NCBI GenBank assembly: GCA_964474055.1
Contig: CAYYRT010000407.1
Location: 1,110-65,109 of the forward strand
Origin: an uncultured Acidimicrobiaceae bacterium
GTDB taxonomy: Bacteria; Actinomycetota; Acidimicrobiia; Spongiisociales; ZC4RG35
DNA: 64,000 nt
Direction of reading: 5' to 3'
Shown: one piece after another, positions 1,219 to 42,592 of the stretch
Layout: each line of letters starts with the position of its first letter
Position numbering within the stretch: the first letter of the stretch is position 1
Program-made: the position numbers and the translations under genes
Notes under the pieces: model-generated
The model's input: the letters and a program-made list of their open reading frames with translations, nothing else
Told to the model about the DNA's origin: nothing
Databases searched by the model: none

Positions 1219-1233
1219 CCATCAGGGGCACGC

Positions 1234-2604: not shown

Positions 2605-2647
2605 CCAACGTGAGCGGCCCAAACAAAGCCAAGGAGACCAGCATCTG

Positions 2648-4876: not shown

Positions 4877-4878
4877 CG

Positions 4879-6228: not shown

Positions 6229-6237
6229 GGAGCGGCC

Positions 6238-9199: not shown

Positions 9200-9207
9200 G
9201 CCGCTCC

Positions 9208-15581: not shown

Positions 15582-15604
15582 GAGATCCCGAGGAGATCTG
15601 AGCC

Positions 15605-17287: not shown

Positions 17288-17309
17288 AGAGAGGCGGCAA
17301 GACATCGCC

Positions 17310-19147: not shown

Positions 19148-19148
19148 G

Positions 19149-21020: not shown

Positions 21021-21022
21021 GC

Positions 21023-22150: not shown

Positions 22151-22151
22151 C

Positions 22152-25261: not shown

Positions 25262-25267
25262 ACGATC

Positions 25268-27906: not shown

Positions 27907-27910
27907 GCGG

Positions 27911-28945: not shown

Positions 28946-29973
28946 GTGTCACCATCCGTCGCGCCGTCCTCGAGGCCGACGGCGACCGCATGGTCAAGCT
29001 ATTCGCCGCTCACCTCAACTCTGCCTATGACCAGGCGCGCTTCGACTGGCTCTACCGCGCCAATCCCGACGGGCCCGGTCGGGCCTGGCTCGCGGTCGAC
29101 AGCGAGACGGGAGATCTGGTGGGCACTGCCGCCGCGATACCGCGCCGAGTGCTGATGGGCGGCGAAGATCGACTGGCCTTCGCCTTTAGCGACTTCTGCG
29201 TCGTGCCGACATTCCGCGTGCTCGGGCCGGCCCTCCGATTGCAGCAGGCCTGCCTCGCGCTGGTCGCCGAAGGCGACGCCCTGTTCGGTTACGACTTCCC
29301 GTCGGCCGGGATGACGGCGATCTACCGGCGCCTCGGCATACAACCTTTCGGGCACATCTCCCGGTTCGCCCGACCTCTTCGGAGTGGTCGAAGGATCCGT
29401 GCCCTCGGGCTTCCTTCGCCGGTCGCCGTGCCGCTCACGGGCGTCGCCGACTTTCTCCTGGTGCTCACGGGACCAAGTCGCCGGCGCCGGGATATCGAGG
29501 TGGCATTGCATCGCGGAGCGTGTGGGCCAGAATTCTCACTCCTCGACCGGAATTGCAGTGATCAGTCCACCGTGAGGCTTCGCCGTTCGGCCGAGTATCT
29601 GAACTGGCGTTTCCTCGCGAATCCATTCCAGCACCACGAGATTTTCAGCGCGCGTTCGGGGGGAACATTGCTCGCTTACGCGGTGGTCGCGTCGCAGCCG
29701 GAGACGCCCACCGTAGTTGATCTCTTCGGCCCCTGCGATCGGAATGTGATCCAGACGCTCATCGCGGGTGTCACAGCCCGTCTGCGCGCCCGCGGCGCCA
29801 TCACGCTGAGTATCACGCTCCTGGAAACCCACCCCTGGGCAGGTCTTGTCCGGCGACTCGGCTTTCGTCGGCGCGAGTCCTCGCCCGCGATTCTCTACGC
29901 TCCTGACGCCTCGGCGATGTCCCGGCTGACGGGCTCGCCGTGGCTCCTCACCTGGGGGGACCGAGACAGTTGA
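28942..29973 (+). CDS. GNAT-family N-acyltransferase-like protein.
   Basis: Central ..DLVGTAAAIPRRV..FAFSDFCVVPTFR..ACLALV.. resembles the acyl-CoA N-acyltransferase core. ATGA overlap with the upstream gene. Confidence 0.5.
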   Translation: MSVTIRRAVLEADGDRMVKLFAAHLNSAYDQARFDWLYRANPDGPGRAWLAVDSETGDLVGTAAAIPRRVLMGGEDRLAFAFSDFCVVPTFRVLGPALRLQQACLALVAEGDALFGYDFPSAGMTAIYRRLGIQPFGHISRFARPLRSGRRIRALGLPSPVAVPLTGVADFLLVLTGPSRRRRDIEVALHRGACGPEFSLLDRNCSDQSTVRLRRSAEYLNWRFLANPFQHHEIFSARSGGTLLAYAVVASQPETPTVVDLFGPCDRNVIQTLIAGVTARLRARGAITLSITLLETHPWAGLVRRLGFRRRESSPAILYAPDASAMSRLTGSPWLLTWGDRDS

Positions 29974-29990
29974 CCTTTGACGGGGGCGCT

Positions 29991-30254
29991 ATGGCTGGCA
30001 CTCACACCGCCGATCGAATCAAGGCGTTCATCCTCGATCACTTCCCCTTGGCTCGTGGGCGCTCGTTACGGAACGATGATCGTCTCTTGGAGAACGGTCT
30101 CCTCGACTCGCTGGGCGTTCTGGACCTCGTGGCCTACCTCGAGCGGGAGTTCCAGATGGTCGTCTCTGACGACGAATTGCTACCCGAGCATTTCGAAAGC
30201 ATCGATCGTCTCACCCGATTTGTCGACCGTAAGCGTGGCGGGACCGCACGATGA
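29991..30254 (+). CDS. Acyl carrier protein (phosphopantetheine-binding).
   Basis: 88 aa. ..ENGLLDSLGVLDLVAYLE.. carries the DSL phosphopantetheine attachment motif. Confidence 0.7.
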   Translation: MAGTHTADRIKAFILDHFPLARGRSLRNDDRLLENGLLDSLGVLDLVAYLEREFQMVVSDDELLPEHFESIDRLTRFVDRKRGGTAR

Positions 30255-31312
30255 CTGGCGACACTCCCCGGCGCGTCGCGGTGGTGATTCCCTTCTATCA
30301 ACGCGAACACGGTATCCTTTCGAAGGCGGTGACGTCCGCCCTCGGGCAGCTCGATGTCGAGGAGTTTGAGATCATCGTGGTCGACGATGGCTCGCCGGTC
30401 TTGGCCCAGGATGAACTGGCTCCACTCCTTACGCACAACCGAGATCGCCTGCGTGTACTTCATCGATCGAACGGCGGTCCCGGCGCGGCTCGAAACACCG
30501 GTCTTGATGCGGTCAGCCCGGAGACCACGTACATTGCCTTTCTCGATTCGGACGACACGTGGGCCCCCAGTCATCTGCATCGCGCCGTGGCGGCCCTGGA
30601 CCAGGGCTACGACTTCTACTTCTCGGACTTTTTCCAGCTCGACCAAACGATCAGTGCGTTCCGACGTGCCGGGCGCATCGAGCCGTCGCACCACCCCGCG
30701 CTACGCGGTCTTTCCGCGATGCACGAGTGGAGCGGAGACATGCTCGCCCAGATCCTCACCGGCAATGTCATCGGCACTTCCACCGTCGTGTACCGGCGCG
30801 CCTGCTGCCCGGAGCTTCGATTCCACGAGGACTATTCGCATGCCGGCGAGGACTATCTCTTCTGGCTCGATGTCTCGACCCGGACGACACGGTTTGTCTT
30901 TTCCTCGGACAACGAGTGCACCTATGGCAAGGGGGTCAACATGTACACCGGGTCGGGGTGGGGTAGCGCGGGCTCACTCCGGCGAACTCTGTGCGAGATG
31001 AAGTACCTGAAGGCCGTCAGGCGCCGGTATCCCCTGAGTCCGGCGCTGTCCAGCCACGTCGCGAGGGGTCGCAGACGTCTGCGCAGTTACTTTGTTCGTG
31101 ATGTGCTGCATCGCCTGTTCCGTCGAGAGCCTCTGGACCCTCACGTGCTGCTGGAACAATTGCGCCACGACGTGTGGAGCGGGGTCCTATTCGCACCACT
31201 CGCTTGCCTCATCGCGGTCTCTGCCATCAAGGCGAAGCTCACGGTGGCGCGCACGGGCGGCGCCGCGGCCGCCCTGGTGACCTCCCTCAAGGACACGACA
31301 TGGACTATTTGA
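30251..31312 (+). CDS. Glycosyltransferase family 2.
   Basis: VAVVIPFYQRE..IVVDDGS..AFLDSDDTW (DxD) motifs. Confidence 0.8.
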   Translation: MTGDTPRRVAVVIPFYQREHGILSKAVTSALGQLDVEEFEIIVVDDGSPVLAQDELAPLLTHNRDRLRVLHRSNGGPGAARNTGLDAVSPETTYIAFLDSDDTWAPSHLHRAVAALDQGYDFYFSDFFQLDQTISAFRRAGRIEPSHHPALRGLSAMHEWSGDMLAQILTGNVIGTSTVVYRRACCPELRFHEDYSHAGEDYLFWLDVSTRTTRFVFSSDNECTYGKGVNMYTGSGWGSAGSLRRTLCEMKYLKAVRRRYPLSPALSSHVARGRRRLRSYFVRDVLHRLFRREPLDPHVLLEQLRHDVWSGVLFAPLACLIAVSAIKAKLTVARTGGAAAALVTSLKDTTWTI

Positions 31313-32871
31313 TCCATCACATGCTGCGCACCAGCGCTGGGCGCACGCCGCAGAAGGAAGCGCTGGTCCACAAGGAGCAGCGACTCACGTATCGCGACGC
31401 GTGGGCTCGGGTCAGCGGGTTCGCGGAGGGGCTGACGCGTGCCGGGCTTCAGCGAGGCGATCGGGTTGGCATCTATCTTGAGCCATCCGTCGCCCAGGCG
31501 ATGTCCATCTTCGGCGTCTCCAAAGCTGGGGGCGTCTTCGTTCCCGTCAACAGTCTGCTGTTCCCGGACCAGGTTGCCCACATCGCGCGGAACTGCTCGA
31601 TGCGGTTTCTGGTGGCCCCGGCCTCTCGCCTCTCGGCGCTAGCGGCCATCCATTCAGAGGTGCCGTCTCTGGAATCTGTCGTGGTAGTGGCGGATGGCGG
31701 CCCGGTTCACAGCCCTTGGCCGGCCCACGATTTCGAGGCCTTGTGCCGGCTCGAGGCCAGTGAGACCGAGCGAGAGGCGGGGATCGAGAAGGACTTGGCC
31801 GCCATCCTGTACACATCGGGCTCCACCGGGAAGCCCAAGGGCGTGATGCTGAGTCACGCACAGGTCATGGCCGGCAGCTCCATCGTCTCGAGCTACCTGG
31901 AGATCACCGCTGCCGACCGCATCCTCGCCATCCTCCCCTTCACCTTCGATGCCGGCCTGAACCAGATCATGACCGCCTTCCAGCAGGGGGCAACGATTGT
32001 CCTGATGACCTTTGTCTTCGCCCGGGAGATCGTTCAAGCTCTTCTACGCGAGCGAATCACCGGCCTCGCCGGCGTGCCGACGCTCTGGAGCCTGCTGTCC
32101 CACGGAAGCGCGACCCTCGACAAGCAACCGCTGCCTCATCTCCGCTACATCACAAATACCGGCGGCGCGATGCCGCAGCCGATACTCGCCACATTGCGGG
32201 CAGCACTGCCCGGTACTCGGGTCTTTCTCATGTACGGGTTGACCGAGGCTTTCCGCTCCACCTACCTTCCGCCCGAGGAGCTGGATCGGAGGCCGACCTC
32301 AATTGGGAGAGCCATCCCGAATACGGAGATCCTCGTGATCAACGAGGACGGTCAGCTCAGCAAGCCCGGCCAGGTCGGCGAGCTCGTCCACCGGGGCCCC
32401 ACGGTCTCGATGGGTTACTGGGGTGAGCCTGAGCTGACCGCGCAGGTCTTGAGACCGCACCCGTTGCGCGCGCCGCAGCTCGGCGAAGCGGAGAAGGTCT
32501 GCTACTCGGGCGACTATGTGACCATGGACGAGGAGGGGTATCTCTTCTTCGTTGGACGGCGAGATACGATGATCAAGTGCTCCGGGTTCCGGATCAGCCC
32601 GACCGAGGTCGAGGAGGTGCTGTTTCAGAGTGGGCTGGTCAAGGGCGCCGCGGTCATCGGCGTGCCCGATCCGAGCCTTGGCCAGTTCATCAAAGCCTTC
32701 GTTGTCGGAAAGGACGGAGGCTCGCTCAATACCGAGGAGCTGCTCCAGTTCTGTTCAGAACGCAGCCCGCGTCACATGGTTCCCAAAGTCATCGAGATAG
32801 TCGACGATCTCCCGAAGACTTCGAGCGGCAAAGTAGACTACCCCGCCCTGCGTCGGCGGGAGGGCCTCTGA
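31300..32871 (+). CDS. AMP-dependent synthetase/ligase (acyl-CoA / acyl-carrier-protein ligase, exosortase-associated type).
   Basis: ILYTSGSTGKPKGVMLSH (A3 motif), YGLTE, GDY..DEEGYLFFVGRRDTMIKCSGFRISPTEVE, ..SSGKVD. Confidence 0.8.
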   Translation: MDYLIHHMLRTSAGRTPQKEALVHKEQRLTYRDAWARVSGFAEGLTRAGLQRGDRVGIYLEPSVAQAMSIFGVSKAGGVFVPVNSLLFPDQVAHIARNCSMRFLVAPASRLSALAAIHSEVPSLESVVVVADGGPVHSPWPAHDFEALCRLEASETEREAGIEKDLAAILYTSGSTGKPKGVMLSHAQVMAGSSIVSSYLEITAADRILAILPFTFDAGLNQIMTAFQQGATIVLMTFVFAREIVQALLRERITGLAGVPTLWSLLSHGSATLDKQPLPHLRYITNTGGAMPQPILATLRAALPGTRVFLMYGLTEAFRSTYLPPEELDRRPTSIGRAIPNTEILVINEDGQLSKPGQVGELVHRGPTVSMGYWGEPELTAQVLRPHPLRAPQLGEAEKVCYSGDYVTMDEEGYLFFVGRRDTMIKCSGFRISPTEVEEVLFQSGLVKGAAVIGVPDPSLGQFIKAFVVGKDGGSLNTEELLQFCSERSPRHMVPKVIEIVDDLPKTSSGKVDYPALRRREGL

Positions 32872-34178
32872 TGGTGGACCGGGTCTCCACTCTGATCGCT
32901 CGGCACTTCATGGAGTCCGGGGGCCAGCTGGCGATCGGCGGCCTTCCCATCGGGCCTATCGCATCGGAGTTCGGCACCCCGTTCTTCGTCTACAGCGCGG
33001 ACGTGCTGGATCGCACGTGGGCCCGCCTGCGACAGACGTATCCGGCCGAGTTCTCGATCAGCTACTCGGTGAAGGCGAACCCCAATCGGGCGATCGTCCG
33101 GTACTTCCTTGGCCAGGGGTGTGGTCTAGAGGTCGCGTCGGCAGGCGAGCTGACTCTGGCCCTCGCGGCGGGCTGTCCTCCTCAGCGTATCATGTTTGCC
33201 GGGCCGGGTAAGACGGAGACGGAGCTACGCCTCGCGTTGAATCGGCGCATCGGCGAGATCCACATTGAATCCCTCACTGAGGCCCAACGCATTGGCACCA
33301 TCGCCGCGAGTGTCGGCGAGCCGGCCCGGATCGCTCTCCGTGTCAATCCGAGTGCCGACGCCCAGGGTGGGGCAATGCAGATGGGAGGCAAGCCTGCCCC
33401 CTTCGGCGTGGACGAGGAGGTGCTCGAGGAAACCCTGGACCAGCTCCTCCGCAATCCGAATCTTTCGGTTCGGGGAATCCACCTGTTCAGCGGGACGCAG
33501 ATTCTCGACTACACGGTTCTCGTTCGCCAGTACGAAAAGGGGCTGGCTTTGGCACGCCGTGCTTCCAAGCACCTGCCGGGTCCGCTTCGGACGCTCGATT
33601 TCGGCGGAGGTCTGGGGGTTCCGTATTTCACGGGAGAGTCCGAGCTCGACATGGACTCGCTGGCCGCCCGCCTGCGAGAGCTGGTGGACGAGGTTCGATC
33701 CGACAGGCTGTTGGCCGGTACCCAGCTCGTGATCGAACCCGGGCGATATCTGGTCGCGGAAGCGGGTATCTATGTCGCCCGGATCAACGACATCAAGGTA
33801 TCTCGAGGCAAGACGTTCCTGATCATCGACGGAGGGATGAACCATCATCTCGCCGCTTCAGGAAACCTCGGCCAGGTCATCAAGCGCAATTTCCCGGTGG
33901 CCATTCTGAACAAGATAAGGCGTGAAAGCTCTGGACGGGTCGACGTGGTCGGGCCCCTGTGCACGCCGCTGGATACGCTGGCCCGCGACGTTGAGCTACC
34001 GGGGGCCGAGATTGGCGATTTGCTCGGGATCTTCTGTTCGGGAGCCTATGGGCTCACGGCCAGCCCGGTCCACTTTCTGAGCCATCCGCTGCCTGCCGAA
34101 GTCTTGGTCGAGGCGGGCGTTCCACGGCTGATAAGGGGCCGGCGAGAGGTCCGAGAGGCCCTTGACGATCTCGACTGA
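32871..34178 (+). CDS. PLP-dependent decarboxylase, Orn/DAP/Arg decarboxylase fold (exosortase-associated type).
   Basis: ..TPFFVYS..ISYSVKANPN.. (PLP-Lys region), ..LDFGGGLGVPY.., C-terminal ..CGSGAYG. TGATG overlap with the upstream gene. Confidence 0.8.
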   Translation: MVDRVSTLIARHFMESGGQLAIGGLPIGPIASEFGTPFFVYSADVLDRTWARLRQTYPAEFSISYSVKANPNRAIVRYFLGQGCGLEVASAGELTLALAAGCPPQRIMFAGPGKTETELRLALNRRIGEIHIESLTEAQRIGTIAASVGEPARIALRVNPSADAQGGAMQMGGKPAPFGVDEEVLEETLDQLLRNPNLSVRGIHLFSGTQILDYTVLVRQYEKGLALARRASKHLPGPLRTLDFGGGLGVPYFTGESELDMDSLAARLRELVDEVRSDRLLAGTQLVIEPGRYLVAEAGIYVARINDIKVSRGKTFLIIDGGMNHHLAASGNLGQVIKRNFPVAILNKIRRESSGRVDVVGPLCTPLDTLARDVELPGAEIGDLLGIFCSGAYGLTASPVHFLSHPLPAEVLVEAGVPRLIRGRREVREALDDLD

Positions 34179-34245
34179 GGCTCTTGCGCGCGCCGCCCGG
34201 GGCCCCACCTTCCGTGTCCGGCGTGAGCCGAGGTTGACGGCTCGG

Positions 34246-35370
34246 ATGCTCACTCCATCGATCAAGAGGCGACCACTGCCCGTGCCGGTCGAAGGTAGTC
34301 CAACCTTCTATCTTTTCTGGGCCCGCAGCGGGATCTACCAGAGCCTTCGCGTGCTCGGGTTGGCTGCAGGGGACACCGTGCTGGCTCCCGCGTACCATTG
34401 CGCCTCTCTCGTCGATCCGATCCTTCAGTCCGGAGCTTCGGTCCGCTTCTTTCAGATCCGCCGGGACTGCTCCGTGGACCTCGACGACATCCGCGCCAGG
34501 ATCGACCGCCGCACTCGCGCGATCATCGCCGTCCACTATTTCGGCTTTCCGCAACCACTGCGGGAGCTCCGGACGCTATGTGATGAGCGCGGCTTGTTTC
34601 TCATAGAGGACTGCGCGCACGTGCTGAGTGGGCATTCCGAGGGTCACGCCCTCGGGAGTGTTGGTGACGTCAGCGTGTTCAGCTGGAGGAAGTTCCTGCC
34701 TCTGTACGACGGGGGCGTGCTGGCGGTCAACAACCCTGCCCTGGCCCCCTCGCTCCGTCTGACCGATCCTTCCAGACTGCTCCGGCTGCGGATATGGAAG
34801 AATCTGCTGGACCGGCTGGTGGATGACTCCTCATTCGGAGAATCAGAGGCGTTTCGCGGCATCCTTCGGGCCGTATCGAAGCTCGGTCGGCGGATCGCTT
34901 CTCGGGGCCAGCAATCCGCGTCACTCGCCGTCAACAACTACAGCCTGGATTTGGAGCCGGAGGCGCTGAGCCTCGGCATGTCCGGCCCGTCACGCCGCAT
35001 GTTGCGTCAGGCGGATTTCGCCGAGATCATTGAAGCTCGGCGGCGGAACTACCGGATGCTCCAGGTGCGGCTGACGGGGGTGCCCACCGTGGCGCCTTTG
35101 TTCCCTGCTCTTCACGAGGGCGTCTGCCCATGGGTGTTTCCTCTCGTGGCGTCGGGCCGCCGCGGCTTTCATCTGGAGCTTCGGGCCAGAGGTATTCCGG
35201 CCGTGACCTGGGGAGAGGTGATCCATCGCGATCTTCCCCTGCACGAGTTCCCGGCCGCCCGGTTCCTCTACGAGCATGCCGTTTTCGTGCCGGTCCACCA
35301 AAGCCTTACCGAGTCCGACCTGGAGACTACCGTCGAGGCCATCCGAGCGGTCGCGACCGACCGCGCATGA
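34246..35370 (+). CDS. DegT/DnrJ/EryC1/StrS-like PLP-dependent aminotransferase (sugar aminotransferase-like).
   Basis: ..GDTVLAPAYHCASLVDPI..AIIAVHYFGFP..LFLIEDCAHVLSG..VFSWRKFLPLYDGG pattern. Alternative TTG start at 34162. Confidence 0.5.
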   Translation: MLTPSIKRRPLPVPVEGSPTFYLFWARSGIYQSLRVLGLAAGDTVLAPAYHCASLVDPILQSGASVRFFQIRRDCSVDLDDIRARIDRRTRAIIAVHYFGFPQPLRELRTLCDERGLFLIEDCAHVLSGHSEGHALGSVGDVSVFSWRKFLPLYDGGVLAVNNPALAPSLRLTDPSRLLRLRIWKNLLDRLVDDSSFGESEAFRGILRAVSKLGRRIASRGQQSASLAVNNYSLDLEPEALSLGMSGPSRRMLRQADFAEIIEARRRNYRMLQVRLTGVPTVAPLFPALHEGVCPWVFPLVASGRRGFHLELRARGIPAVTWGEVIHRDLPLHEFPAARFLYEHAVFVPVHQSLTESDLETTVEAIRAVATDRA

Positions 35371-36647
35371 GATCGCTGCTCATGGTCGCCTTCCACTACC
35401 CCCCCTGCGTGGGGAGCAGCGGCGTCTTGCGGACACTCAAGTTCTCACGGTATCTCCCGGACGTCGGCTGGCGCCCGCTGGTGCTGACCGCGCACCCTCG
35501 TGCCTATGAGCGAACGGGATTCGATCAGCTAGGCGAGATCCCTCCAGGCGTTGAGGTTGCTCGCGCGCCGGTGGTGGATTCGTTTCGACATCTGGCCTTT
35601 CGTGGGCGGGCCCTCCGGATCACCGCCCTTCCTGATCGATGGGTCACCTGGTGGGTCGGCGCGGTGGCCACGGGACTGTGGCTCATACGCCGGCGGCGGC
35701 CAGCCGCGATCTGGTCGACGTATCCTATTGCGACGGCGCATCTGATCGGGCTCGCCCTTCATCGACTCACCGGTCTTCCTTGGGTCGCGGACTTCCGGGA
35801 CTCCATGACAGAGCCCGGCTACCCCCGTGACCCCTGGACCCGCCGTGCCTATCTCGCCATCGAGCGGCAGACGGTCAGACGGGCGTCTGCCCTCGTCTTC
35901 ACCGCCCGCTCCACGCGAGCCATGTACCTCGAGCGCTATCCAGGCCTCTCGCCCGACCGCTGCTTCGTTGTGCCCAATGGATACGACGAAGCCGATTTCG
36001 TCGCCCTGTCCGCGCCAACGGGGCGGTGCCCATCGGAAGGTGCGTTGCGCCTGCTCCATGCCGGCTTGATCTATCCGGAAGAGCGCGATCCGCGTCCGTT
36101 CTTTCGCGCTCTGGCCCGGCTGAAGCGCGCCGGCGTCGTCGCCCCCGACACCGTGTCCATCGAGCTTCGCGCGTCAGGGTCTGAGCGCGAATATGCGCGC
36201 CTCCTCGGCGAGCTGAACATCCTGGAGCTAGTCCGCCTCCTCCCGGCGCTTTCGTACCGGGACGTTCTCCAGAACGGCCTGGCCGCCGACGCTCTACTTC
36301 TCCTGCAGGGTCCTACCTGCAATCATCAGATTCCGGCGAAGCTCTACGAATACCTGCGGCTGGGCAAGCCAATCCTCGCCCTGACCGACGCCCGGGGCGA
36401 CACGGCGGCGGTTCTCGGTGAGACTGGAGGCGCGACCACCATCGATCTGCTCGACGAGGATGCGCTGTACCGTGGCCTGCCGTCTTTCCTGGACTCCGTC
36501 CGCAACGGCACCCACCCGGTGCCGGATGCGACAATCTCCGCCCAGTACGCGCGTCACAACCAGGCCGGCGCGCTCGCCCGCCTGTTGACTACGCTCGTGG
36601 AGCGCTCCGATCCGGCGCCCAGAGTGCACACGGGAGTTCGTCTATGA
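35367..36647 (+). CDS. Glycosyltransferase (GT4-like N-terminal domain).
   Basis: MRSLLMVAFHYPPCVGSSG.. typical GT4 N-terminal start. ATGA overlap with the upstream gene. Confidence 0.6.
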   Translation: MRSLLMVAFHYPPCVGSSGVLRTLKFSRYLPDVGWRPLVLTAHPRAYERTGFDQLGEIPPGVEVARAPVVDSFRHLAFRGRALRITALPDRWVTWWVGAVATGLWLIRRRRPAAIWSTYPIATAHLIGLALHRLTGLPWVADFRDSMTEPGYPRDPWTRRAYLAIERQTVRRASALVFTARSTRAMYLERYPGLSPDRCFVVPNGYDEADFVALSAPTGRCPSEGALRLLHAGLIYPEERDPRPFFRALARLKRAGVVAPDTVSIELRASGSEREYARLLGELNILELVRLLPALSYRDVLQNGLAADALLLLQGPTCNHQIPAKLYEYLRLGKPILALTDARGDTAAVLGETGGATTIDLLDEDALYRGLPSFLDSVRNGTHPVPDATISAQYARHNQAGALARLLTTLVERSDPAPRVHTGVRL

Positions 36648-36994
36648 GATATCGATACCGGCTTTCTCTCATCGGTGCGGTCCTCTGGAGCGTGTCCCTG
36701 ATACCAAGCGGCTACGTCGACGACAGGCCTCGAAGCGCGCAGGCCCAGGGCGCCCCCGGGCGGGAGCCGAGTCCCGGCTCGTCTCAGGATGCCGGTGTCT
36801 CCACCCCGCTCAACCCGACCGCTGGCGCCCACATGGACAGCTATGACTACGATAGGCGGAACCGCGTCATAGTCAGCACGAGCTACGGGGAGAGCCAGTT
36901 CCGGATGTGGGTCTGGAGGCCTGATGACAGTGTCTGGAGGGAACTGCCCGTCGACACCCGCCCGACCGAGCTGTGGGCCTGGGGCTATCGGTGA
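36644..36994 (+). CDS. Hypothetical small secreted protein.
   Basis: Signal-peptide-like MRYRYRLSLIGAVLWSVSLIPSG. ATGA overlap with the upstream gene. Confidence 0.4.
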   Translation: MRYRYRLSLIGAVLWSVSLIPSGYVDDRPRSAQAQGAPGREPSPGSSQDAGVSTPLNPTAGAHMDSYDYDRRNRVIVSTSYGESQFRMWVWRPDDSVWRELPVDTRPTELWAWGYR

Positions 36995-37008: not shown

Positions 37009-39993
37009 ATGAACCGCTTGACCTTCGTTGCGGCCCTGGTGTCCTTCTGCGTGCCCATCTTCGTTCCCGGGCCGTCCGCGACGGAGCCCGGCGGGTCCGC
37101 GGGGGAGGTCTCGATCGTCTATTCCCGTTGCCTCCGGATGGAACGCGCGGCTCCAGTCACTCACACCGTGGTCGTGAACGGTAGGCCGGTCAAGGTAGAC
37201 AAATCGCTGGGCCACTCGGATGTGCTCGATGTCCTGCCCGATATCAGTAACTTCTTCGGGGGGTTCACCGCACCCTGTGACCTCATCCTCCGCAATGGGT
37301 CCGGGGCAGAGCGGGTCCTGTACGATTGTGCCTCACGGTCGACGGACCAGGGTGCGTGCGCAGCCCTTGACGCTGCCGTGTCGTTCGACGCGAAGACCAT
37401 TGCCTTCGCAGTCTTTCGAGGTCCGATCCAGCGGCGTACCCTCGATCTCCCTCCCAAGTTCTTTCATCCCGCCGCGGCCGACGGCAGATCTCTGCGGATT
37501 GCCCTCCCCAACGCCTACCTCGAGAGTCGTGAAGCCCAGCTCTTCCTCGTGGATGTCGCCACCGGCAGAGTGACCGGTCTCCCTCACCGCGCCGGCGTCT
37601 TCGACTCCGGTCCGGCGTGGCTCTCGAATGGTCGGCTGGCATTCACCTCCACGCGGAGCGGCCAGTTCTCCACTTTGGTCTCCGACCTTCAGCGCCCCGC
37701 CTCACAGATCTTCACGAGCGATCCGGATGGGCGCAACGTCGAGAAGGCCAGCTATCATGCGCTTGCCGGGGAGCAGCATCCGTTTCAGCTGAAAGACGGG
37801 CGTGTCGCCTTGAGTAGCTGGCAGCTCTTTGGAATGCTGCCGTATCGGAACGACAACGGCTCCGCCGGTAGCTTCGGCACGCTCGACAACTTCTTCCACG
37901 TCTACTCCCAGCATCCGGACGGGGCGAATCCGTTTCCCCTCTTTGGCCAGCACACCACGAATCTGGGAACCTACCCGAGCCCATACCCCGCCCACTTTGC
38001 CGCCCATTTCGCCACGCAGGGCAGCGACGGCCGGTTCTGGGTGGCCGATTACTATCGCGGCAACAATTCCGGTCTCGGACAGGTCGTCGGCTTCCCCCTG
38101 CCGCCGATCGGCCAGGAAGGCATCGCTCCCAATCGCGCGTCTCATCTTCATGACATCTATCGACCCGAAGGGTTTACCATGCTCACGCGGTGGGCGAGCG
38201 GTTTCGACGCCATGGCCGGGCCTATGCCCCCGCCGTCGGTCCGGCTTCCCACGTATCGCGATCCGCTCGCCCTCGTCGGCAAGATCAGCCATCCGGCCGC
38301 GTTGCCGAAGAACGCGCTACTCATCACCTGGGCCGCGGGCGGTTGCAGTACCGTGACCGGCGGGTACCTGGAGATGGAGATGCTGACCCGCTTGGGCCGA
38401 GACAACCCCGGATGCGACGCCGGCATCTACCGGACGTCGCGCATTCCGTCGCGGCATCCATCCGATCTTGTCCAGATCGTGAATCGCCGCGAGTATCACG
38501 AGATCATGGCGCGGGCCGTGGTTCCGTACTCCGTCATCTACGGCATCGAGAAGCCCGCTGCCATTCCTCGGGCGGAGCTGGCCGCGGCGGGTGATCCGGA
38601 CCTCGTGCCCGGTACCCCGTTCGGTGTTCTCGGCGCCTCATCGATCATCCTCCGCGAGACGCGGCCGGTAGGCGGAATCCCGTTTTCGGGGACGCCCTTC
38701 GCCTTCAGTCTCCAGGGAACGGACACCGTCGACTACAAGGACGAGGAGCTGTGCGGTATCCGGATTCTCGCCGTGCAGCCGAACCAGCGCGAGGAGTACA
38801 AGCGGTACAAGACGACCGTCGGCGAGCGGGTCGTGATCCTGGGCGAGTTCCCGGTACACAAGAGGGACCGCGCCGGGAACTCTCCTCGCGACCCGACCGG
38901 CGCACCCGATACCTCTTTCAAGGTGCGCTTCCCCGCCAATACCCCATACCTGATGCAGGGGATCGATTGCCTGGGCCGCACCTTGAATACCGACCAGACG
39001 TGGCAGCACCTCAGGCCGGGCGAGCTGAAGACCTGCAATGGCTGTCATGTTCATGGCAAGGAGGGACTGCCCTTCAACAAGACCGCCGCCGCTGATCCCG
39101 GGTATCGAGCGGTTCGCCTGGGCGAGGGCAGCGTCCCATTGCTGGCAGGCGGCTCGCGGGCATCGGTTCAGGTGGTGAGCAGGCCCGGGTACGGCCTACA
39201 GTTCGAATTCGAGCGCGACGTGTTTCCCATTTTCCAGCGCCGTTGCGCGGGCTGTCATTCGGGCACCGCGCCGGCCGCCGGCGTGGTGCTGGACCTTCCC
39301 GGGACCGGACCTGGGTCCACGTACGATCGCCTTGTCCGGGATCGCGGGCAGCGATTCGTGCCGGACGGCCGCCGCTACCCCCATCCTATCCGCAAGCCCC
39401 AGCTGACGAAATACGTCCGCGCCCTCAACGCTCGCGGCAGTCTGCTCTACTGGAAGGCCATCAACCAGCGAACCGACGGCCGGACCGACACAACGTACAC
39501 GCGCGCGGCCGGTCCAGGATGGGAAGACGTGGACTTCGGGCCCTCCCATCCGACGAGCATCACCCCGGAGGAGCTGGCCACCCTCTCCAGATGGCTCGAC
39601 ACGGGTGCGGCCGCCCAGGCCGGTTTCCTTGCCGACACCACGCCTCCTACTCTGCACCTGGCCGCGGGTGTTCACGGTCAGGCGGTGACCACTCTTTACG
39701 TCGGAACCGTGGATGTTTTTAGCGGCATTGATCAGGCGTCCCTCGAGGTCTGCGTGGTGGCCGGCGATGGCCGTTGTGGTCCGAACCTGGCGCCCAGGGC
39801 CGACCCCGCCGGCGTTGTGAGCATCAGCTTCCGAGAGCCGATTTCCAGCCCGGATGTCGAGGTTCGCGGACGCGTGCGCGACCTGGCCGGTAACGAGACG
39901 CAAGTCCAACACACCTTAGGATGGCTAGTCGAGAACACGGCCCCAGGCCGCCAGACGCCCACGGCGGGGGCTTCCGGTGCTCCCCGTCGATAG
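37009..39993 (+). CDS. Large (~995 aa) secreted beta-propeller protein with two CxxCH motifs and a PSCyt1-like C-terminus (putative c-type cytochrome domain protein).
   Basis: Signal peptide MNRLTFVAALVSFCVPIFVPG, PD40/TolB-like repeats, CNGCH and CAGCH motifs, C-terminal ..ITPEELATLSRWLDTGAA. Confidence 0.6.
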   Translation: MNRLTFVAALVSFCVPIFVPGPSATEPGGSAGEVSIVYSRCLRMERAAPVTHTVVVNGRPVKVDKSLGHSDVLDVLPDISNFFGGFTAPCDLILRNGSGAERVLYDCASRSTDQGACAALDAAVSFDAKTIAFAVFRGPIQRRTLDLPPKFFHPAAADGRSLRIALPNAYLESREAQLFLVDVATGRVTGLPHRAGVFDSGPAWLSNGRLAFTSTRSGQFSTLVSDLQRPASQIFTSDPDGRNVEKASYHALAGEQHPFQLKDGRVALSSWQLFGMLPYRNDNGSAGSFGTLDNFFHVYSQHPDGANPFPLFGQHTTNLGTYPSPYPAHFAAHFATQGSDGRFWVADYYRGNNSGLGQVVGFPLPPIGQEGIAPNRASHLHDIYRPEGFTMLTRWASGFDAMAGPMPPPSVRLPTYRDPLALVGKISHPAALPKNALLITWAAGGCSTVTGGYLEMEMLTRLGRDNPGCDAGIYRTSRIPSRHPSDLVQIVNRREYHEIMARAVVPYSVIYGIEKPAAIPRAELAAAGDPDLVPGTPFGVLGASSIILRETRPVGGIPFSGTPFAFSLQGTDTVDYKDEELCGIRILAVQPNQREEYKRYKTTVGERVVILGEFPVHKRDRAGNSPRDPTGAPDTSFKVRFPANTPYLMQGIDCLGRTLNTDQTWQHLRPGELKTCNGCHVHGKEGLPFNKTAAADPGYRAVRLGEGSVPLLAGGSRASVQVVSRPGYGLQFEFERDVFPIFQRRCAGCHSGTAPAAGVVLDLPGTGPGSTYDRLVRDRGQRFVPDGRRYPHPIRKPQLTKYVRALNARGSLLYWKAINQRTDGRTDTTYTRAAGPGWEDVDFGPSHPTSITPEELATLSRWLDTGAAAQAGFLADTTPPTLHLAAGVHGQAVTTLYVGTVDVFSGIDQASLEVCVVAGDGRCGPNLAPRADPAGVVSISFREPISSPDVEVRGRVRDLAGNETQVQHTLGWLVENTAPGRQTPTAGASGAPRR

Positions 39994-40060
39994 GGCCCAG
40001 TTGACGCTTACCTCAAGGCGTGGGCCCCGCCTCGCCGGCGAGGCGAGAAGGTCGCCCGTG

Positions 40061-41281
40061 TTACCGCTTTCCTCCAGGCGGGTCGCTCCTTGTAAAGCGG
40101 TACGCCCACGTTCGCCTCCCGGAGGCCGCGTCGGTGAGGAAGATATAGAGATTGTTGATGGGGTCGTAGTCCAGTGCGTGAAACGCGAGGGTGCCGATCT
40201 TGGCATCCTGCGTCGACGACGCTTGCATGCGTTGTGAGGTCCAGTGTTTCGTCAAGGGATCATAGGCGTAAAACGTTCCGTCGAGGACTCCACCGCCGAT
40301 GACCATGTTGGCGGCGTCGTAGGCCCATCCTGATTCCTGTGAGTTGGGAATGTCTCCCGTCATCCCCGTCACCTCCGACACCCGTGGTCCCTTCGATGCA
40401 ACTTCGAAGACCCGGGTCGGCGATCCGCGGGCGACCAGGTACATCCTCCGGTTCGGAGGAAAATAGACCAGGTTATTCGCGTATCCGACGGTGGCGGGTA
40501 CATCTGCCAACGTGTCCACCTTCTGAGTCGCCGGATCGTACCGCCATAGACGTCCAGGACTAGCATTGACGCCGAGCCCGATGATCAGGATCAACTTAGA
40601 CTCGGGATCGTACTCCGCGGCCGCTGCGTAGTACCACGTGCTATCCGCAGGGGCGCGACTATATGTCCATCGTGGTGTCGCCGATAGGAGGTCGTAGTGA
40701 GCGATCTTCGCTCGTCCAGGAATCCCACCACTCGTCAGGATGATGAAGTGCTTCTCATTTCCCACCTCGGCTACCGCCAGCATGTCATAGGTATGGCGGA
40801 CGACCGGGTGCCCGGTACTGATCCACGCGCCTCTCTCCGTGTCATTGTTGGCAGCGGTCATTGCCGCCGCGGGAGTCGAGCGATACAGACTCCCCCATTT
40901 CAGCGTATTTAGGTCGAAGGCAGCGATATCCGTCCGGATCGCCGGCCCGTGCCCGCCACCGAACATGAGCATCCGATGATGGTGGGAGTCGTACCGGAAG
41001 CCACTGTAGTCGGTGATGAACTCGCACCCGGTGGGACGGTCAGCTGGCTCACTGCAGGTATAGCGTCCCAGATCCAGAGCCGTGCCGGGAGGAATATTCT
41101 GCAGGGTTGGGTTTGGACGGGGCATGACGCTTCCCCCCGATCGGTCCCTCTCCGTCTTTGCCTCCCGGTACTGCACCGACCGAACCGTCTGCGGCTCGGC
41201 AAGCGCAGCCGCCAGCGCGCACTCCCCCAACACCAGCGTCAGCACCATCACAACCACCCTACTCCCCCAGCTCCAGTTCAC
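40061..41281 (-). CDS. Secreted hypothetical protein, probable beta-propeller (Kelch/galactose-oxidase-like).
   Basis: GTG start with an AAGGAGG RBS, signal peptide, repeated Gly/Trp/Tyr-rich blade-like segments. Confidence 0.5.
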   Translation of the reverse strand: MNWSWGSRVVVMVLTLVLGECALAAALAEPQTVRSVQYREAKTERDRSGGSVMPRPNPTLQNIPPGTALDLGRYTCSEPADRPTGCEFITDYSGFRYDSHHHRMLMFGGGHGPAIRTDIAAFDLNTLKWGSLYRSTPAAAMTAANNDTERGAWISTGHPVVRHTYDMLAVAEVGNEKHFIILTSGGIPGRAKIAHYDLLSATPRWTYSRAPADSTWYYAAAAEYDPESKLILIIGLGVNASPGRLWRYDPATQKVDTLADVPATVGYANNLVYFPPNRRMYLVARGSPTRVFEVASKGPRVSEVTGMTGDIPNSQESGWAYDAANMVIGGGVLDGTFYAYDPLTKHWTSQRMQASSTQDAKIGTLAFHALDYDPINNLYIFLTDAASGRRTWAYRFTRSDPPGGKR

Positions 41282-41362: not shown

Positions 41363-42592
41363 CTATCGCCTCACGTCGGGACGGATAGGCCCGCTCGGCC
41401 GCTCGATCGCTCCGGTGCTGGCCGGGACTCGTCGCGGGGTACCGAAAAAGTCATCGTCCACCTGGGTCCGGTCAACCCCTGGTATCGCGGCGCCGATGAG
41501 TAAGGAGCCGAGGAACGGCGAAAAATCAAGCCCTTCGGTGTTCGCGAAGCAGGCCACCCACGTGCAGTTCACGTTGCCCAGGAGACGGAGACCGGGGCGA
41601 GCGGCAGGCAGGACCGGGGTGCCGACCCGGCCATGAACTGCGTTGTTCAGGATCGATGCCTCCACCGGTTCATTGTCTGCGATCCAGATGGCCGCCTGCC
41701 GGTTGCCGTAGACGCTATTGTGCGCGACGATGACCCCACGCAGAAGACCCCGACCCTGATAGTTTTCGAGTCCGATGCCCGCTTTGAAGTTGCCGACGGC
41801 CACGTTGTTCCGCACCAGTACCGGTCCACCCGCGATCACGATGCCGGACGAGGTGCGGGATCCGGATACGAAGTTGCGCTCGACCACGCTCATATTTAGC
41901 AGATCGCGCGCGCCATAGACCATGATGCCGGGGCCTTTGGTGTCTTGAATCATATTGCCCCGGATGACGCCGGACGAGTTCAGCTTCACCTGGAGGCCAT
42001 AGCCCACCTCGGAGCCGGACGCGCTCACCCCCTGAATGTGGTTGCCCTCCACGACCAACCCCGAGATGGTGCACCCAAACCCGTCGTGGCACCCGAAGTA
42101 CATGCCGGTAGCGAGGGACTCGGCGATCACGTTGCGTCTCACGGCTAGCCCGTGCACGCTGGCGTGGGTCGATGCGACTGCGATCCCGCCCAGCTGGAAA
42201 AATCGACAGTCCTCGATCGTGATCCGGTTCCCTGACATGATCCGGATGCCATCCGCCTCGCCGAAGTTTCCCCAGAATTCAAGGCCCCGGATTGTGACGT
42301 CGCTCGCCTTGACCTCGAGCAAGTTGACCGGGCGGCCCGAATACGACAGGCGCGGTCGACGCGCGGGATCGGCGGCCCGGATCACGAGGGGCAGCCCAAT
42401 CTGCCCCCCCCGGTGGATCACGCAGCCCGCCCGATAGTCGCCTGCTTCGAGCACGAGCTCTTCGCCCGGCGCCAACGACTGAATGGCGACGCAGAGATCC
42501 GTCGCGGGGCCGATTTCGAGACCACGAGCGGGAGCGGGAGAAAGAGCGAAGACGGTAAGCAGGAGTGCCAGACCGATGAGCGCAGGCATCAA
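41363..42592 (-). CDS. Secreted right-handed parallel beta-helix repeat protein (pectin-lyase fold). Candidate polysaccharide lyase, epimerase or hydrolase.
   Basis: Signal peptide MMPALIGLALLLTVFALSPAPA. Repeated ..GN.I.DC.., ..RNNV..GN.. and ..HNSVYGN.. beta-helix coil motifs. Confidence 0.6.
   Translation of the reverse strand: MMPALIGLALLLTVFALSPAPARGLEIGPATDLCVAIQSLAPGEELVLEAGDYRAGCVIHRGGQIGLPLVIRAADPARRPRLSYSGRPVNLLEVKASDVTIRGLEFWGNFGEADGIRIMSGNRITIEDCRFFQLGGIAVASTHASVHGLAVRRNVIAESLATGMYFGCHDGFGCTISGLVVEGNHIQGVSASGSEVGYGLQVKLNSSGVIRGNMIQDTKGPGIMVYGARDLLNMSVVERNFVSGSRTSSGIVIAGGPVLVRNNVAVGNFKAGIGLENYQGRGLLRGVIVAHNSVYGNRQAAIWIADNEPVEASILNNAVHGRVGTPVLPAARPGLRLLGNVNCTWVACFANTEGLDFSPFLGSLLIGAAIPGVDRTQVDDDFFGTPRRVPASTGAIERPSGPIRPDVRR

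What the first reader, a model, noticed from the sequence alone, without database searches (positions are those of the whole stretch)
37009..39993. A ~1000-aa secreted beta-propeller protein with two CxxCH motifs and a PSCyt1-like C-terminus closing the EPS operon
The last gene of the 39-kb operon encodes a protein with a signal peptide, PD40/TolB-like repeats, two c-type heme-binding motifs (CNGCH and CAGCH) and a C-terminus resembling the Planctomycete-type cytochrome C (PSCyt1) domain.

A putative heme protein co-transcribed with polysaccharide biosynthesis is unexpected. It could be a redox-active matrix or anchor protein, or a lectin-like EPS-binding module. It also hints at a PVC/Acidobacteria/Gemmatimonadetes-like lineage.
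Basis: partly seen in the sequence, partly recalled or inferred. Interest (0 to 1): 0.65.

Follow-up and report, generated by a model that had tools for sequence, protein, structure and literature searches.

The report
Hydrazine-synthase-alpha-like diheme protein in EPS locus
The last gene of this exopolysaccharide gene cluster encodes a secreted two-heme protein built like the alpha subunit of anammox hydrazine synthase; it belongs to a widespread, catalogued family of unknown function that lacks the features needed to make hydrazine.

Summary
The ORF is real: 37009-39993 (+), 994 aa, with a signal peptide. Its two CxxCH motifs are far beyond chance (0.006 expected) and invariant in 116 close and 92 distant homologs.

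The domain assignment is wrong. There is no PSCyt1 hit, and the C-terminus is an Ig-like domain. The protein is an 'HzsA-related protein': a beta-propeller, the Pfam HZS_alpha middle domain (40.6 bits, cut-off 26.6) with heme 1, a small cytochrome-c-like domain with heme 2, then the Ig-like domain. The AlphaFold model (pLDDT 92) matches hydrazine synthase alpha over its whole length (5c2v_A, E=1.8e-26).

It is not hydrazine synthase. It scores 30 bits against an 800-bit cut-off, lacks the Tyr591 ligand (the family motif is CxGCHxH) and has no beta/gamma partner.

About a quarter of full-length homologs carry cell-surface sorting tags. The gene lies in or beside EPS loci (XrtA markers confirmed in the window and Thalassotalea) in two unrelated clades, but not in myxobacterial or Nitrosomonas loci. 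A Kelch-like propeller gene is adjacent in about a quarter of loci and fused in two homologs.

The best reading, which is inferred, is an extracytoplasmic heme enzyme acting in or on the EPS matrix. The family is already catalogued; the EPS link seems new. Interest is moderate.

The parts
37009..39993 (+). Gene for the 994-aa HzsA-related diheme protein, stop codon included
   Evidence: ORF. The exact 994-aa product is on record in NCBI. Full-length homologs reach E=0. AF2 model: pLDDT 92.2, pTM 0.92.
37009..37080 (+). Signal peptide (aa 1-24, predicted cleavage after PSA)
   Evidence: Hydrophobic core LTFVAALVSFCVPIFV with mean hydropathy 2.2. Residues 1-29 have pLDDT below 50.
37111..38688 (+). 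N-terminal beta-propeller domain (about aa 35-560) with conserved His/Tyr/acidic residues (H257, H315, H333, Y348, Y349, D400)
   Evidence: All-beta secondary structure. Foldseek matches TolB and other propellers. Weak PD40 hit. Conservation.
38761..39048 (+). HZS_alpha middle domain (Pfam PF18582, aa 585-680)
   Evidence: E=1.2e-10, 42.2 bits against a 26.6 cut-off on the isolated segment. 40.6 bits on the whole protein.
39034..39054 (+). Heme-1 motif CNGCHVH (C676, C679, H680, H682). Family signature: PGE-x3-C-x-G-C-H-x-H
   Evidence: Translation. Invariant in 116/116 close homologs. H682 is kept in 99% and E672 in 98% of 92 distant members. Aligns to CSGCHYGSY of 5c2v_A.
39196..39618 (+). 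Small, mainly helical cytochrome-c-like domain with heme 2 (about aa 730-870). H847 is the candidate distal ligand.
   Evidence: Aligns to the heme alpha-II region of 5c2v_A and to PccH 4rlr_A. Only sub-threshold Cytochrome_CBB3, Cytochrom_C and PccH hits, and no PSCyt1. H847 is invariant in 116 homologs.
39244..39258 (+). Heme-2 motif CAGCH (C746, C749, H750)
   Evidence: Translation. Invariant in 116/116 and 92/92 homologs.
39649..39915 (+). C-terminal Ig-like beta-sandwich domain (aa 881-969) with conserved Cys915/Cys923. HZS alpha has no such domain.
   Evidence: Seven strands at high pLDDT. Only a weak Big_3_2 hit. The distant ~800-aa relatives end at about aa 868 of the query.
36644..36994 (+). 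116-aa remnant of a Kelch-like secreted protein (internal deletion of about 280 aa), directly upstream
   Evidence: Its N- and C-terminal parts match the two ends of the 398-aa gene at L006:8531-9727. The same 116-aa ORF appears in an independent Logan assembly, L053.
40061..41281 (-). Kelch-like six-bladed beta-propeller protein with a signal peptide, convergent with the heme gene. Candidate partner.
   Evidence: AF2 pLDDT 88, and the top PDB matches are Kelch domains. Homologs sit next to HzsA-related genes in 9 loci. A similar domain is fused in P0035 (E=6e-10) and P0020.
41363..42592 (-). Right-handed beta-helix (CASH/NosD-like, Pel9A-like) secreted protein. Candidate polysaccharide-active partner.
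   Evidence: Pfam Beta_helix 6.7e-20 and NosD 9.3e-12. Pel9A-like hits on orthologs. Homologs lie next to HzsA-related genes in L006, L014 (3 copies) and L037 (2 copies).
1210..36647 (+). XrtA/PEP-CTERM-type exopolysaccharide biosynthesis locus upstream on the same strand
   Evidence: NCBIfam hits above curated cut-offs: TIGR03013, TIGR03006, TIGR03019, TIGR03087, TIGR03097, TIGR03098. TIGR03099 scores 457 against 478. Pfam finds GT4, GT2, Asn_synthase, DegT and GNAT genes.

Best explanation
Shown: the gene encodes a Sec-exported member of the catalogued 'HzsA-related protein' family. Its four modules are a beta-propeller, the HZS_alpha middle domain carrying c-type heme 1 on an invariant CxGCHxH motif, a small cytochrome-c-like domain carrying heme 2, and a C-terminal Ig-like domain. 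The first three reproduce the architecture of hydrazine synthase subunit alpha. It is not a hydrazine synthase.

Inferred: it works outside the cytoplasm, in the periplasm and probably on the cell surface or in the matrix, as a heme-dependent redox enzyme. By analogy with HZS alpha, heme 1 would be the catalytic site, lying near the conserved polar residues of the propeller and middle domain. Heme 2 would be an accessory or electron-relay heme.

Inferred: in this organism it serves the XrtA-type exopolysaccharide system, modifying or processing the polymer or its amino/amide substituents, or doing redox chemistry within the matrix. It probably acts with the neighbouring Kelch-like propeller and beta-helix proteins. 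The substrate and reaction are unknown.
For: Identity:
- Pfam HZS_alpha scores 40.6 bits against a 26.6 cut-off.
- PDB sequence matches at both heme motifs go to 5c2v_A, with profile E=1.3e-13.
- The model (pLDDT 92) gives 5c2v_A as by far the best fold match: E=1.8e-26, TM 0.61 on the target, 977 aligned columns. The next hits are propellers alone at about 1e-8.
- Full-length homologs of about 50% identity are named 'HzsA-related protein' by their sources.

Heme and enzyme character:
- Both CxxCH motifs are invariant in 208 homologs.
- H682, E672, D634 and S636 are kept in at least 98% of distant members, and H333, H257, Y348, Y349 and D400 in 87-95%.

Location:
- The protein has a signal peptide.
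- 50 of 198 full-length homologs end in MYXO-CTERM-like or GlyGly-CTERM-like surface-sorting tags, and many carry extra Ig/cadherin-like repeats.
- Five conserved Cys pairs fit disulfides in an oxidising compartment.

EPS link:
- The gene sits in or beside EPS loci in the window, L004, L006, L010 and L053, and in Colwellia psychrerythraea (L009), Thalassotalea ND16A (L012), L025 and L026.
- In L012 the XrtA markers TIGR03098 and TIGR03099 score above their cut-offs.

Partners:
- A Kelch-like gene is adjacent in 9 loci and fused in P0035 and P0020.
- A beta-helix gene is adjacent in 4 loci.
- No other cytochrome is encoded in the 64-kb window.
Against: - No activity, cofactor content or localisation was measured, so the function is inference from fold, conservation and neighbourhood.
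- The EPS context is absent from Chondromyces (L008), Nitrosomonas (L007), a Burkholderiales MAG (L011) and most myxobacterial-type metagenome loci. The family's core function therefore cannot require an XrtA locus.
- Kelch adjacency holds in only about a quarter of informative loci.
- BLASTP found no significant similarity between the window's Kelch2 protein and P0020, or between its beta-helix protein and P0097.
- The window protein itself has no surface-sorting tag, so it may stay in the periplasm.
[quoted passage not shown] The 'relay' role for heme 2 is therefore weak.
- No model coordinates were available, so I could not check whether the conserved residues surround heme 1.
Confidence: 0.55

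Rival explanations
1. It is a matrix- or surface-bound electron-transfer cytochrome. It would be held in or on the exopolysaccharide and pass electrons to or from extracellular acceptors, as the Geobacter Xap polysaccharide anchors c-type cytochromes. No chemistry of its own would be involved.
For: Two invariant c-type heme sites. Homologs carry surface-sorting tags. The gene sits in EPS loci. The Ig-like domain could serve for attachment.
Against: There are only two hemes in about 970 residues. In the structural homolog the equivalent hemes are not within efficient transfer distance (bioRxiv 10.1101/2023.01.22.525020). The OmcA/MtrC family score is negligible: 13 bits against 209. No other cytochrome is encoded in the window. 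Heavy conservation of polar residues in the propeller is not expected for a wire.
Confidence: 0.15
2. It does nitrogen-oxide or hydroxylamine chemistry like its anammox relative, for example binding or detoxifying NO or NH2OH, or forming N-N or N-O bonds. Its position next to EPS genes would be incidental.
For: The only characterised relative, HZS alpha, condenses NH2OH and NH3 at the equivalent heme (bioRxiv 10.1101/2023.01.22.525020; bioRxiv 10.64898/2026.02.25.707902). The family occurs in Nitrosomonas, in two copies on one contig (P0064 and P0079). A published suggestion holds that hzs-like genes form a broader enzyme family with alternative substrates (PMC10732223).
Against: The Tyr591 proximal ligand is absent, replaced by a CxGCHxH motif. 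There is no beta/gamma partner to deliver NH2OH. Most carriers are heterotrophs (Myxococcota, Alteromonadales). No nitrogen-cycle genes lie next to the gene in any locus inspected. Published analysis of other HzsA homologs also found the key residues missing (PMC12758564).
Confidence: 0.15
3. It is a non-catalytic structural, adhesin or lectin-like protein. The propeller would bind the polysaccharide and the hemes would only stabilise the fold.
For: Beta-propellers and Ig-like domains are common glycan- and protein-binding modules. Homologs add cadherin-like, Big and FN3 repeats.
Against: Absolute conservation of both heme motifs plus H682, E672, D634 and S636 down to about 31% identity points to chemistry. 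About 50% identity across phyla over 950 residues is unusually high for an adhesin.
Confidence: 0.1
4. The first reader's domain reading: a PD40/TolB-type propeller fused to a Planctomycete-type cytochrome c (PSCyt1) domain at the C-terminus.
For: The stretch FERDVFPIFQRRCAGCH resembles, from my recollection of that family, the start of PSCyt1 domains. The same motif type occurs in PccH and in the heme alpha-II region of HZS alpha.
Against: No PF07635 hit at E<=10 on the whole protein or the isolated domain. No PSCyt2/PSD1-type domains were found. The heme domain is not C-terminal. The whole chain matches HZS alpha instead.
Confidence: 0.02

Closest known systems
Hydrazine synthase alpha subunit (HzsA, kuste2861; PDB 5C2V chain A) of anammox bacteria
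   Same: Same order of modules: N-terminal beta-propeller, middle domain with a CxxCH heme, then a small cytochrome-c-type domain with a second CxxCH heme preceded by the D-[IV]-x-P-I motif. Whole-chain Foldseek match with E=1.8e-26 and TM 0.61. Pfam HZS_alpha scores above threshold.
   Different: Only 14% identity. 30 bits against the 800-bit NCBIfam equivalog cut-off. Heme 1 has CxGCHxH in place of CSGCHYGSY, so the Tyr591 ligand is missing. No beta/gamma (HzsBC) partner gene. Extra C-terminal Ig-like domain. About 200 residues longer. Found in EPS loci, and homologs carry cell-surface tags, rather than in an anammoxosome pathway.
'HzsA-related protein' / HZS_alpha-domain proteins of non-anammox bacteria (e.g. 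Chondromyces crocatus P0045, Polyangium aurulentum P0094, Nitrosomonas marina P0073, Thalassotalea ND16A P0097, Colwellia psychrerythraea P0106)
   Same: Full-length homologs at 46-51% identity and 94-96% coverage, with the same invariant motifs and Cys pairs. This is the family the window protein belongs to.
   Different: The window protein lacks the MYXO-CTERM or GlyGly-CTERM tails and the extra Ig/cadherin repeats that many members carry. No member has an experimentally known function.
HzsA homologs co-located with fused HzsBC-like genes (clades I-IV of Hagglund et al. 2025, PMC12758564; Phycisphaerae UBA1845, PMC10732223)
   Same: Distant relatives of HZS alpha in which the residues key to hydrazine synthesis are not conserved. 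The Phycisphaerae locus L003 found here is of this type: a 30%-identity hit with a 1023-aa diheme ORF next to it.
   Different: Those homologs are defined by an adjacent beta-gamma-like multiheme gene. The family here never has one in the loci inspected. It instead occurs alone, as paralog pairs, or with Kelch-like and beta-helix genes.
Cytochrome anchoring by exopolysaccharide in Geobacter sulfurreducens (Xap system) and the cslA-glxA-dtpA glycan system of Streptomyces. Both are cited from my own knowledge and were not tested here.
   Same: Both are precedents for extracellular heme proteins that depend functionally on, or cooperate with, a polysaccharide synthesis locus. In Streptomyces a Kelch-type propeller oxidase (GlxA) works with a heme peroxidase.
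   Different: No homology to those heme proteins. The window's Kelch-like protein gave generic Kelch domains as its best fold matches, with no galactose-oxidase or GlxA entry among the 50 listed.

Membership tests
Hydrazine synthase alpha subunit (NCBIfam NF052339, equivalog) | Whole-protein HMM score at or above the curated cut-off (800 bits) | tested here: not met
   30.2 bits, with only aa 634-688 matched.
Hydrazine synthase alpha subunit | Three-domain architecture: beta-propeller, middle heme domain, C-terminal cytochrome c domain | tested here: met
   Foldseek 5c2v_A: E=1.8e-26, TM(target) 0.61, 977 columns. Pfam HZS_alpha 40.6 bits against 26.6. Both heme regions align.
Hydrazine synthase alpha subunit | Tyr591 (CxxCH +4) as proximal ligand of heme alpha-I, with the CxxCH histidine diverted to a zinc ion | tested here: not met
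   The HMMER alignment puts K684 opposite Tyr591, and this position varies across the family. An invariant His sits at +2 instead. Whether H680 or H682 ligates the iron could not be tested.
Hydrazine synthase alpha subunit | Encoded with HzsB and HzsC (beta-propeller plus CCP/MauG-like diheme subunit) | tested here: not met
   No other ORF with two or more CxxCH in the 64-kb window, nor beside family members in the other loci. The only exception is the distant Phycisphaerae locus L003.
HzsA-related protein / Pfam PF18582 (HZS_alpha) family | PF18582 hit above the gathering threshold | tested here: met
   40.6 bits (whole protein) and 42.2 bits (isolated segment) against 26.6.
HzsA-related protein / Pfam PF18582 (HZS_alpha) family | Full-length similarity to named members, with the two heme motifs conserved | tested here: met
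   E=0, 46-51% identity over 94-96% of the query to P0045, P0073, P0094, P0097 and P0106. The motifs are invariant.
PSCyt1 (Pfam PF07635, Planctomycete cytochrome C) | Match to the PF07635 profile | tested here: not met
   Absent at E<=10 for the whole protein and for aa 720-880 alone. Only sub-threshold Cytochrome_CBB3, Cytochrom_C and PccH hits.
TolB / PD40 beta-propeller proteins | PD40 repeats above threshold, or a match to the TolB equivalog model | tested here: inconclusive
   PD40 scores 13.9-16.6 bits against a 20.9 cut-off. TIGR02800 scores 10.7 against 343. Fold-level similarity of the propeller to TolB is clear at E about 3e-8, so it is a TolB-like propeller but not TolB.
PEP-CTERM / exosortase A substrate | C-terminal PEP motif, then a hydrophobic helix, then a basic tail | tested here: not met
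   The tail ...ENTAPGRQTPTAGASGAPRR has no PEP motif or hydrophobic helix. No PEP-CTERM-like tail was found in 198 homologs or in any window ORF.
XrtA-system EPS locus (as an accessory gene of the locus) | Located within a gene cluster carrying XrtA-system marker families | tested here: met
   Window: TIGR03013, TIGR03006, TIGR03019, TIGR03087, TIGR03097 and TIGR03098 above their cut-offs. The same holds around the Thalassotalea homologs for TIGR03098 and TIGR03099. No exosortase gene itself was identified in the window.
OmcA/MtrC-type outer-surface multiheme cytochromes (TIGR03507) | Match to the decaheme family model | tested here: not met
   13.2 bits against a 209.3 cut-off. The protein has only two heme motifs.

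The most novel reading that the evidence does not exclude
The roughly 1000-aa HzsA-related proteins could be a so far unrecognised class of extracellular heme enzymes that chemically tailor the biofilm matrix. Possible reactions are oxidation, cross-linking, or N-N/N-O bond formation on the amine- and amide-rich substituents that XrtA-type loci install through their asparagine-synthase, aminotransferase, decarboxylase and acyl-ligase genes. They would act with a Kelch-like propeller and a beta-helix glycan-active protein. This surface-enzyme family could also be the pool from which anammox bacteria recruited the alpha subunit of hydrazine synthase.
Probability: 0.12. Interest if true: 0.8.

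Novelty: new member of a known kind. Interest (0 to 1): 0.42.

Why it matters
Hydrazine synthase is one of the most unusual enzymes in the nitrogen cycle. Its origin is debated: de novo birth, or recruitment of older heme proteins (PMC12758564). This gene belongs to a sizeable, well-conserved family that shares the whole alpha-subunit architecture (232 clusters at E<=1e-30 among 1.84 billion representatives). The family occurs in ordinary heterotrophs and nitrifiers, is exported and often surface-anchored, and sits repeatedly in exopolysaccharide loci.

If its reaction were found, it would show what the alpha-subunit scaffold does outside anammox. It might also reveal a heme-dependent step in biofilm or floc matrix formation, which matters for activated-sludge floc formers that use PEP-CTERM/XrtA systems. 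As it stands, this is a correct re-annotation plus a gene-neighbourhood lead, not a new mechanism.

Tried and rejected
- PSCyt1 was tested on the whole protein and on the isolated heme-2 region, with no hit, and rejected.
- True hydrazine synthase was rejected on HMM score, the missing Tyr ligand and the missing beta/gamma genes.
- I looked for a galactose-oxidase/GlxA-like copper oxidase in the neighbouring Kelch protein. Its model returns generic Kelch domains as the best matches, with no galactose-oxidase or GlxA entry among the 50 listed, so no claim is made.
- Rosetta-stone test by BLASTP: the window's Kelch2 protein against the fused domain of P0020, and its beta-helix protein against the tail of P0097, were not significant. 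A custom Kelch HMM did match the P0035 fusion. The P0097 tail gives only a sub-threshold NosD hit.
- The beta-helix neighbour has no sequence match in the PDB.
- The NosD-like hit raised the idea of N2O-reductase-type copper-centre assembly. I dropped it: the window's annotated ORFs gave no NosZ, NosF, NosY or NosL match, and beta-helix (CASH) proteins are common polysaccharide-active enzymes.
- The genome-contig scan returned only 3 loci and no close relative, so the source organism was not identified.
- Model coordinates are not exposed, so I could not measure distances between the conserved residues and the heme site.
- Literature searches found no paper linking hydrazine-synthase-like proteins to EPS, exosortase or MYXO-CTERM. 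One search failed on term length.
- All-vs-all clustering of ORFs in the loci gave mostly alternative-frame artefacts of high-GC DNA and generic myxobacterial kinases.


Full report
**1. The observation**

An ORF on the + strand runs to the stop at 39993. The ATG at 37009 gives 994 aa. That exact 994-aa product is on record in NCBI on a 96.9-kb contig. The same gene order is also seen in an independent Logan assembly of run SRR10083321.

The N-terminus (MNRLTFVAALVSFCVPIFVPGPSA|TE) has a strongly hydrophobic core (mean hydropathy 2.2). It is disordered in the structure model, as expected of a Sec signal peptide.

CNGCH lies at aa 676-680 and CAGCH at aa 746-750. From the protein's composition only 0.006 CxxCH motifs are expected, and none of 5000 shuffles had two. 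This is the only ORF in the 64-kb window with two such motifs.

**2. Domain identity**

- Pfam gives one hit above threshold: HZS_alpha, the middle domain of hydrazine synthase subunit alpha (40.6 bits against a gathering score of 26.6; 42.2 bits on the isolated segment aa 561-719).
- PSCyt1 does not appear even at E<=10, on the whole protein or on aa 720-880 alone. That region gives only sub-threshold Cytochrome_CBB3, Cytochrom_C and PccH matches.
- PD40 is below threshold.
- By sequence, the only solved structure matched is 5c2v_A, hydrazine synthase alpha. It matches at both heme motifs (E=5.5e-7 with the single sequence, 1.3e-13 with the family profile).
- An AlphaFold2 model built on 116 homologs is confident (pLDDT 92.2, pTM 0.92). 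Its best PDB match by a wide margin is 5c2v chains A and D: E=1.8e-26, TM 0.61 normalised to the target, 977 alignment columns, 14% identity. TolB and other propellers follow at about 1e-8.

The protein therefore has four modules:
- a beta-propeller (about aa 35-560);
- the HZS_alpha middle domain carrying heme 1;
- a small, mainly helical cytochrome-c-like domain carrying heme 2 (about aa 730-870);
- an Ig-like beta-sandwich (aa 881-969), which hydrazine synthase alpha lacks.

HZS alpha heme alpha-II and Geobacter PccH share that stretch.

**3. It is not a hydrazine synthase**

- The NCBIfam equivalog model scores 30 bits against a cut-off of 800.
- In HZS alpha the heme alpha-I motif is CSGCHYGSY. 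There the CxxCH histidine (His587) binds zinc and Tyr591 ligates the iron (bioRxiv 10.1101/2023.01.22.525020; PMC12758564). Here the aligned residue is Lys684, a variable position.
- Instead a histidine two residues after the CxxCH histidine is invariant: C-x-G-C-H-x-H. This motif, preceded by P-G-E, holds in 116/116 close homologs. In 92 relatives of only 31-39% identity, H682 is kept in 99% and E672 in 98%.
- No HzsB/HzsC-like gene is present in the window or beside any family member inspected. The one exception is a distant Phycisphaerae locus (L003) of the type already described in the literature (PMC10732223; PMC12758564).

**4. The family**

The word-indexed search returned 173 homologs. 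The best are unnamed metagenome proteins at 88-91% and about 70% identity. Next come full-length relatives at 45-55% identity:
- Chondromyces crocatus;
- Polyangium aurulentum;
- Labilithrix;
- Nitrosomonas (two copies on one contig);
- a Burkholderiales MAG;
- Thalassotalea sp. ND16A;
- Colwellia psychrerythraea.

Several of these are named 'HzsA-related protein', 'PD40 domain-containing protein' or 'MYXO-CTERM sorting domain-containing protein' by their sources.

An exhaustive HMMER scan of 1.84 billion cluster representatives gave 1333 hits at E<=1e-3, 483 at 1e-10 and 232 at 1e-30.

Besides the heme motifs, five Cys pairs are conserved (41/90, 107/117, 446/469, 582/654, 915/923). So is a set of polar residues: H257, H315, H333, Y348, Y349, D400, D634, S636, E672 and H847, among others. 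This pattern suits an enzyme with a defined pocket.

Of 198 full-length homologs, 50 end in a MYXO-CTERM-like or GlyGly-CTERM-like sorting signal. None has a PEP-CTERM. Others add Ig, cadherin-like or FN3 repeats. Much of the family is therefore displayed on the cell surface. The window protein has no such tag.

**5. Genomic context**

Upstream on the same strand, 1210-36647 is an XrtA/PEP-CTERM-type exopolysaccharide locus.
- NCBIfam scores above the curated cut-offs for TIGR03013, TIGR03006, TIGR03019, TIGR03087, TIGR03097 and TIGR03098. TIGR03099 is just below (457 against 478).
- The locus also holds three asparagine-synthase paralogs, several glycosyltransferases, GNAT acetyltransferases and a DegT aminotransferase.

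The heme gene is the last + strand gene. Two convergent genes follow: a Kelch-like propeller (40061-41281) and a right-handed beta-helix protein (41363-42592). Beyond them lie a sigma-54 response regulator and a second EPS cluster.

The EPS association recurs in two clades.
- Own clade, in metagenome contigs: L006 and L053 (the 91%-identical ortholog and the window's own sequence); L004 (70%, where the gene sits inside the locus); and L010 (66%, next to a flippase, a sulfotransferase and an Asn-synthase-like gene).
- Independently in Alteromonadales: Colwellia L009, Thalassotalea L012, and the metagenome loci L025 and L026. In L012 the XrtA-associated ligase and decarboxylase score above their cut-offs.

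It is absent in Chondromyces (L008), Nitrosomonas (L007), the Burkholderiales MAG (L011) and most myxobacterial-type metagenome loci.

Other neighbours also recur.
- A custom HMM finds the Kelch-like gene next to the heme gene in 9 loci, about a quarter of those with enough flank.
- A matching Kelch domain is fused to the heme protein in P0035 (E=6e-10), and a Kelch-like domain by Pfam in P0020.
- Beta-helix genes are adjacent in the window, L006, L014 (three copies) and L037 (two copies).
- Five loci carry two adjacent HzsA-related paralogs.

**6. Mechanism: shown and inferred**

Shown: export signal, two conserved c-type heme attachment sites, HZS-alpha architecture, surface tags in homologs, recurrent EPS/Kelch/beta-helix neighbourhood, and no partner cytochrome.

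Inferred: the protein is an extracytoplasmic heme enzyme. Heme 1, near the conserved residues of the propeller and middle domain, would be the reactive centre, as heme alpha-I is in HZS. Heme 2 would be accessory. In this organism the protein would act on or within the XrtA-type polysaccharide matrix.

The nature of the reaction is open. With no dedicated electron donor encoded nearby, an oxidant such as O2 or H2O2 is plausible but untested.

Rivals are a pure electron-transfer matrix cytochrome, HZS-like nitrogen-oxide chemistry unrelated to EPS, and a non-catalytic adhesin or lectin. The rival-explanations section weighs each of these.

**7. Comparison with what is known**

The family is already catalogued (Pfam PF18582; source names 'HzsA-related protein'). 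A 2025 study of HzsA homologs reported that no protein with another experimentally confirmed function was among the top structural matches to the alpha subunit, and that the key HZS residues are not conserved (PMC12758564). That study focused on homologs next to beta-gamma-like genes.

I found no paper linking HZS-like proteins to EPS, exosortase or MYXO-CTERM systems.

**8. Verdict**

The gene is a new member of a known but uncharacterised family. The recurrent EPS/Kelch/beta-helix context and the CxGCHxH signature are useful leads of moderate interest.

Noticed in passing
window 36644-36994 (+): A 116-aa ORF between the last glycosyltransferase and the heme gene is an internally deleted remnant of a ~398-aa Kelch-like secreted protein. 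Its N- and C-terminal parts match the two ends of the intact gene at L006:8531-9727, and about 280 residues are missing. The same remnant is present in an independent Logan assembly (L053).
   Followed up: yes
window 45740-63311 (+), with GC rising from about 0.62-0.66 to 0.70-0.74 after about 48 kb: A second, separate polysaccharide cluster. It holds a GNVR chain-length protein, a ParA/tyrosine-kinase-like ATPase, a Bac_transf priming transferase, GT2, Wzy_C, two more asparagine synthases, GT4 and a heparinase II/III-like protein. A sigma-54 response regulator precedes it (44457-45851; PEP_resp_reg scores 349 bits against a 503 cut-off). The window holds five asparagine-synthase paralogs in all.
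   Followed up: partly
window 26347-27906 (+) and 42977-44014 (-): Two long ORFs (519 aa and 345 aa) inside or beside the locus have no Pfam match at E<=0.01. The 519-aa ORF occupies the position where the related locus L004 has a Polysacc_synt flippase. No exosortase (XrtA) gene and no PEP-CTERM-tailed ORF were found in the window.
   Followed up: partly
L012 5955-13683; L025 5640-13918; L020 2625-9563; L035 9746-16690; L037 9917-16170: HzsA-related genes occur as adjacent paralog pairs in five loci. The pairs are tandem in the Thalassotalea-type loci and convergent in three metagenome loci, which hints at a heteromeric or two-enzyme arrangement.
   Followed up: no
window 40061-41281 (-), alignment A2: The Kelch-like neighbour family (283 homologs in Minicystis, Acidobacteria, Methylomirabilota, Rokubacteria, Bdellovibrio and others, often fused to Calx-beta, FN3, dockerin or T9SS tails) has near-invariant GGGH (aa 108-111), RHT-x-D (162-166), H368, and several Tyr and Trp residues. 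These might form a metal or active site. The fold search gave only generic Kelch domains.
   Followed up: partly
window 40029-40044: A perfect 16-nt palindrome, GCCTCGCCGGCGAGGC, lies in the 67-bp gap between the convergent heme and Kelch-like genes. It could be a bidirectional terminator stem without a T-run. The simple terminator scan did not call it.
   Followed up: no
L003 2731-7575 (Phycisphaerae MAG JADHXQ010000145.1): The only locus with a second diheme ORF (1023 aa) next to the hzsA-like gene. This is the hzsA-like plus fused hzsBC-like arrangement already described for Phycisphaerae, and it differs clearly from the family studied here.
   Followed up: no
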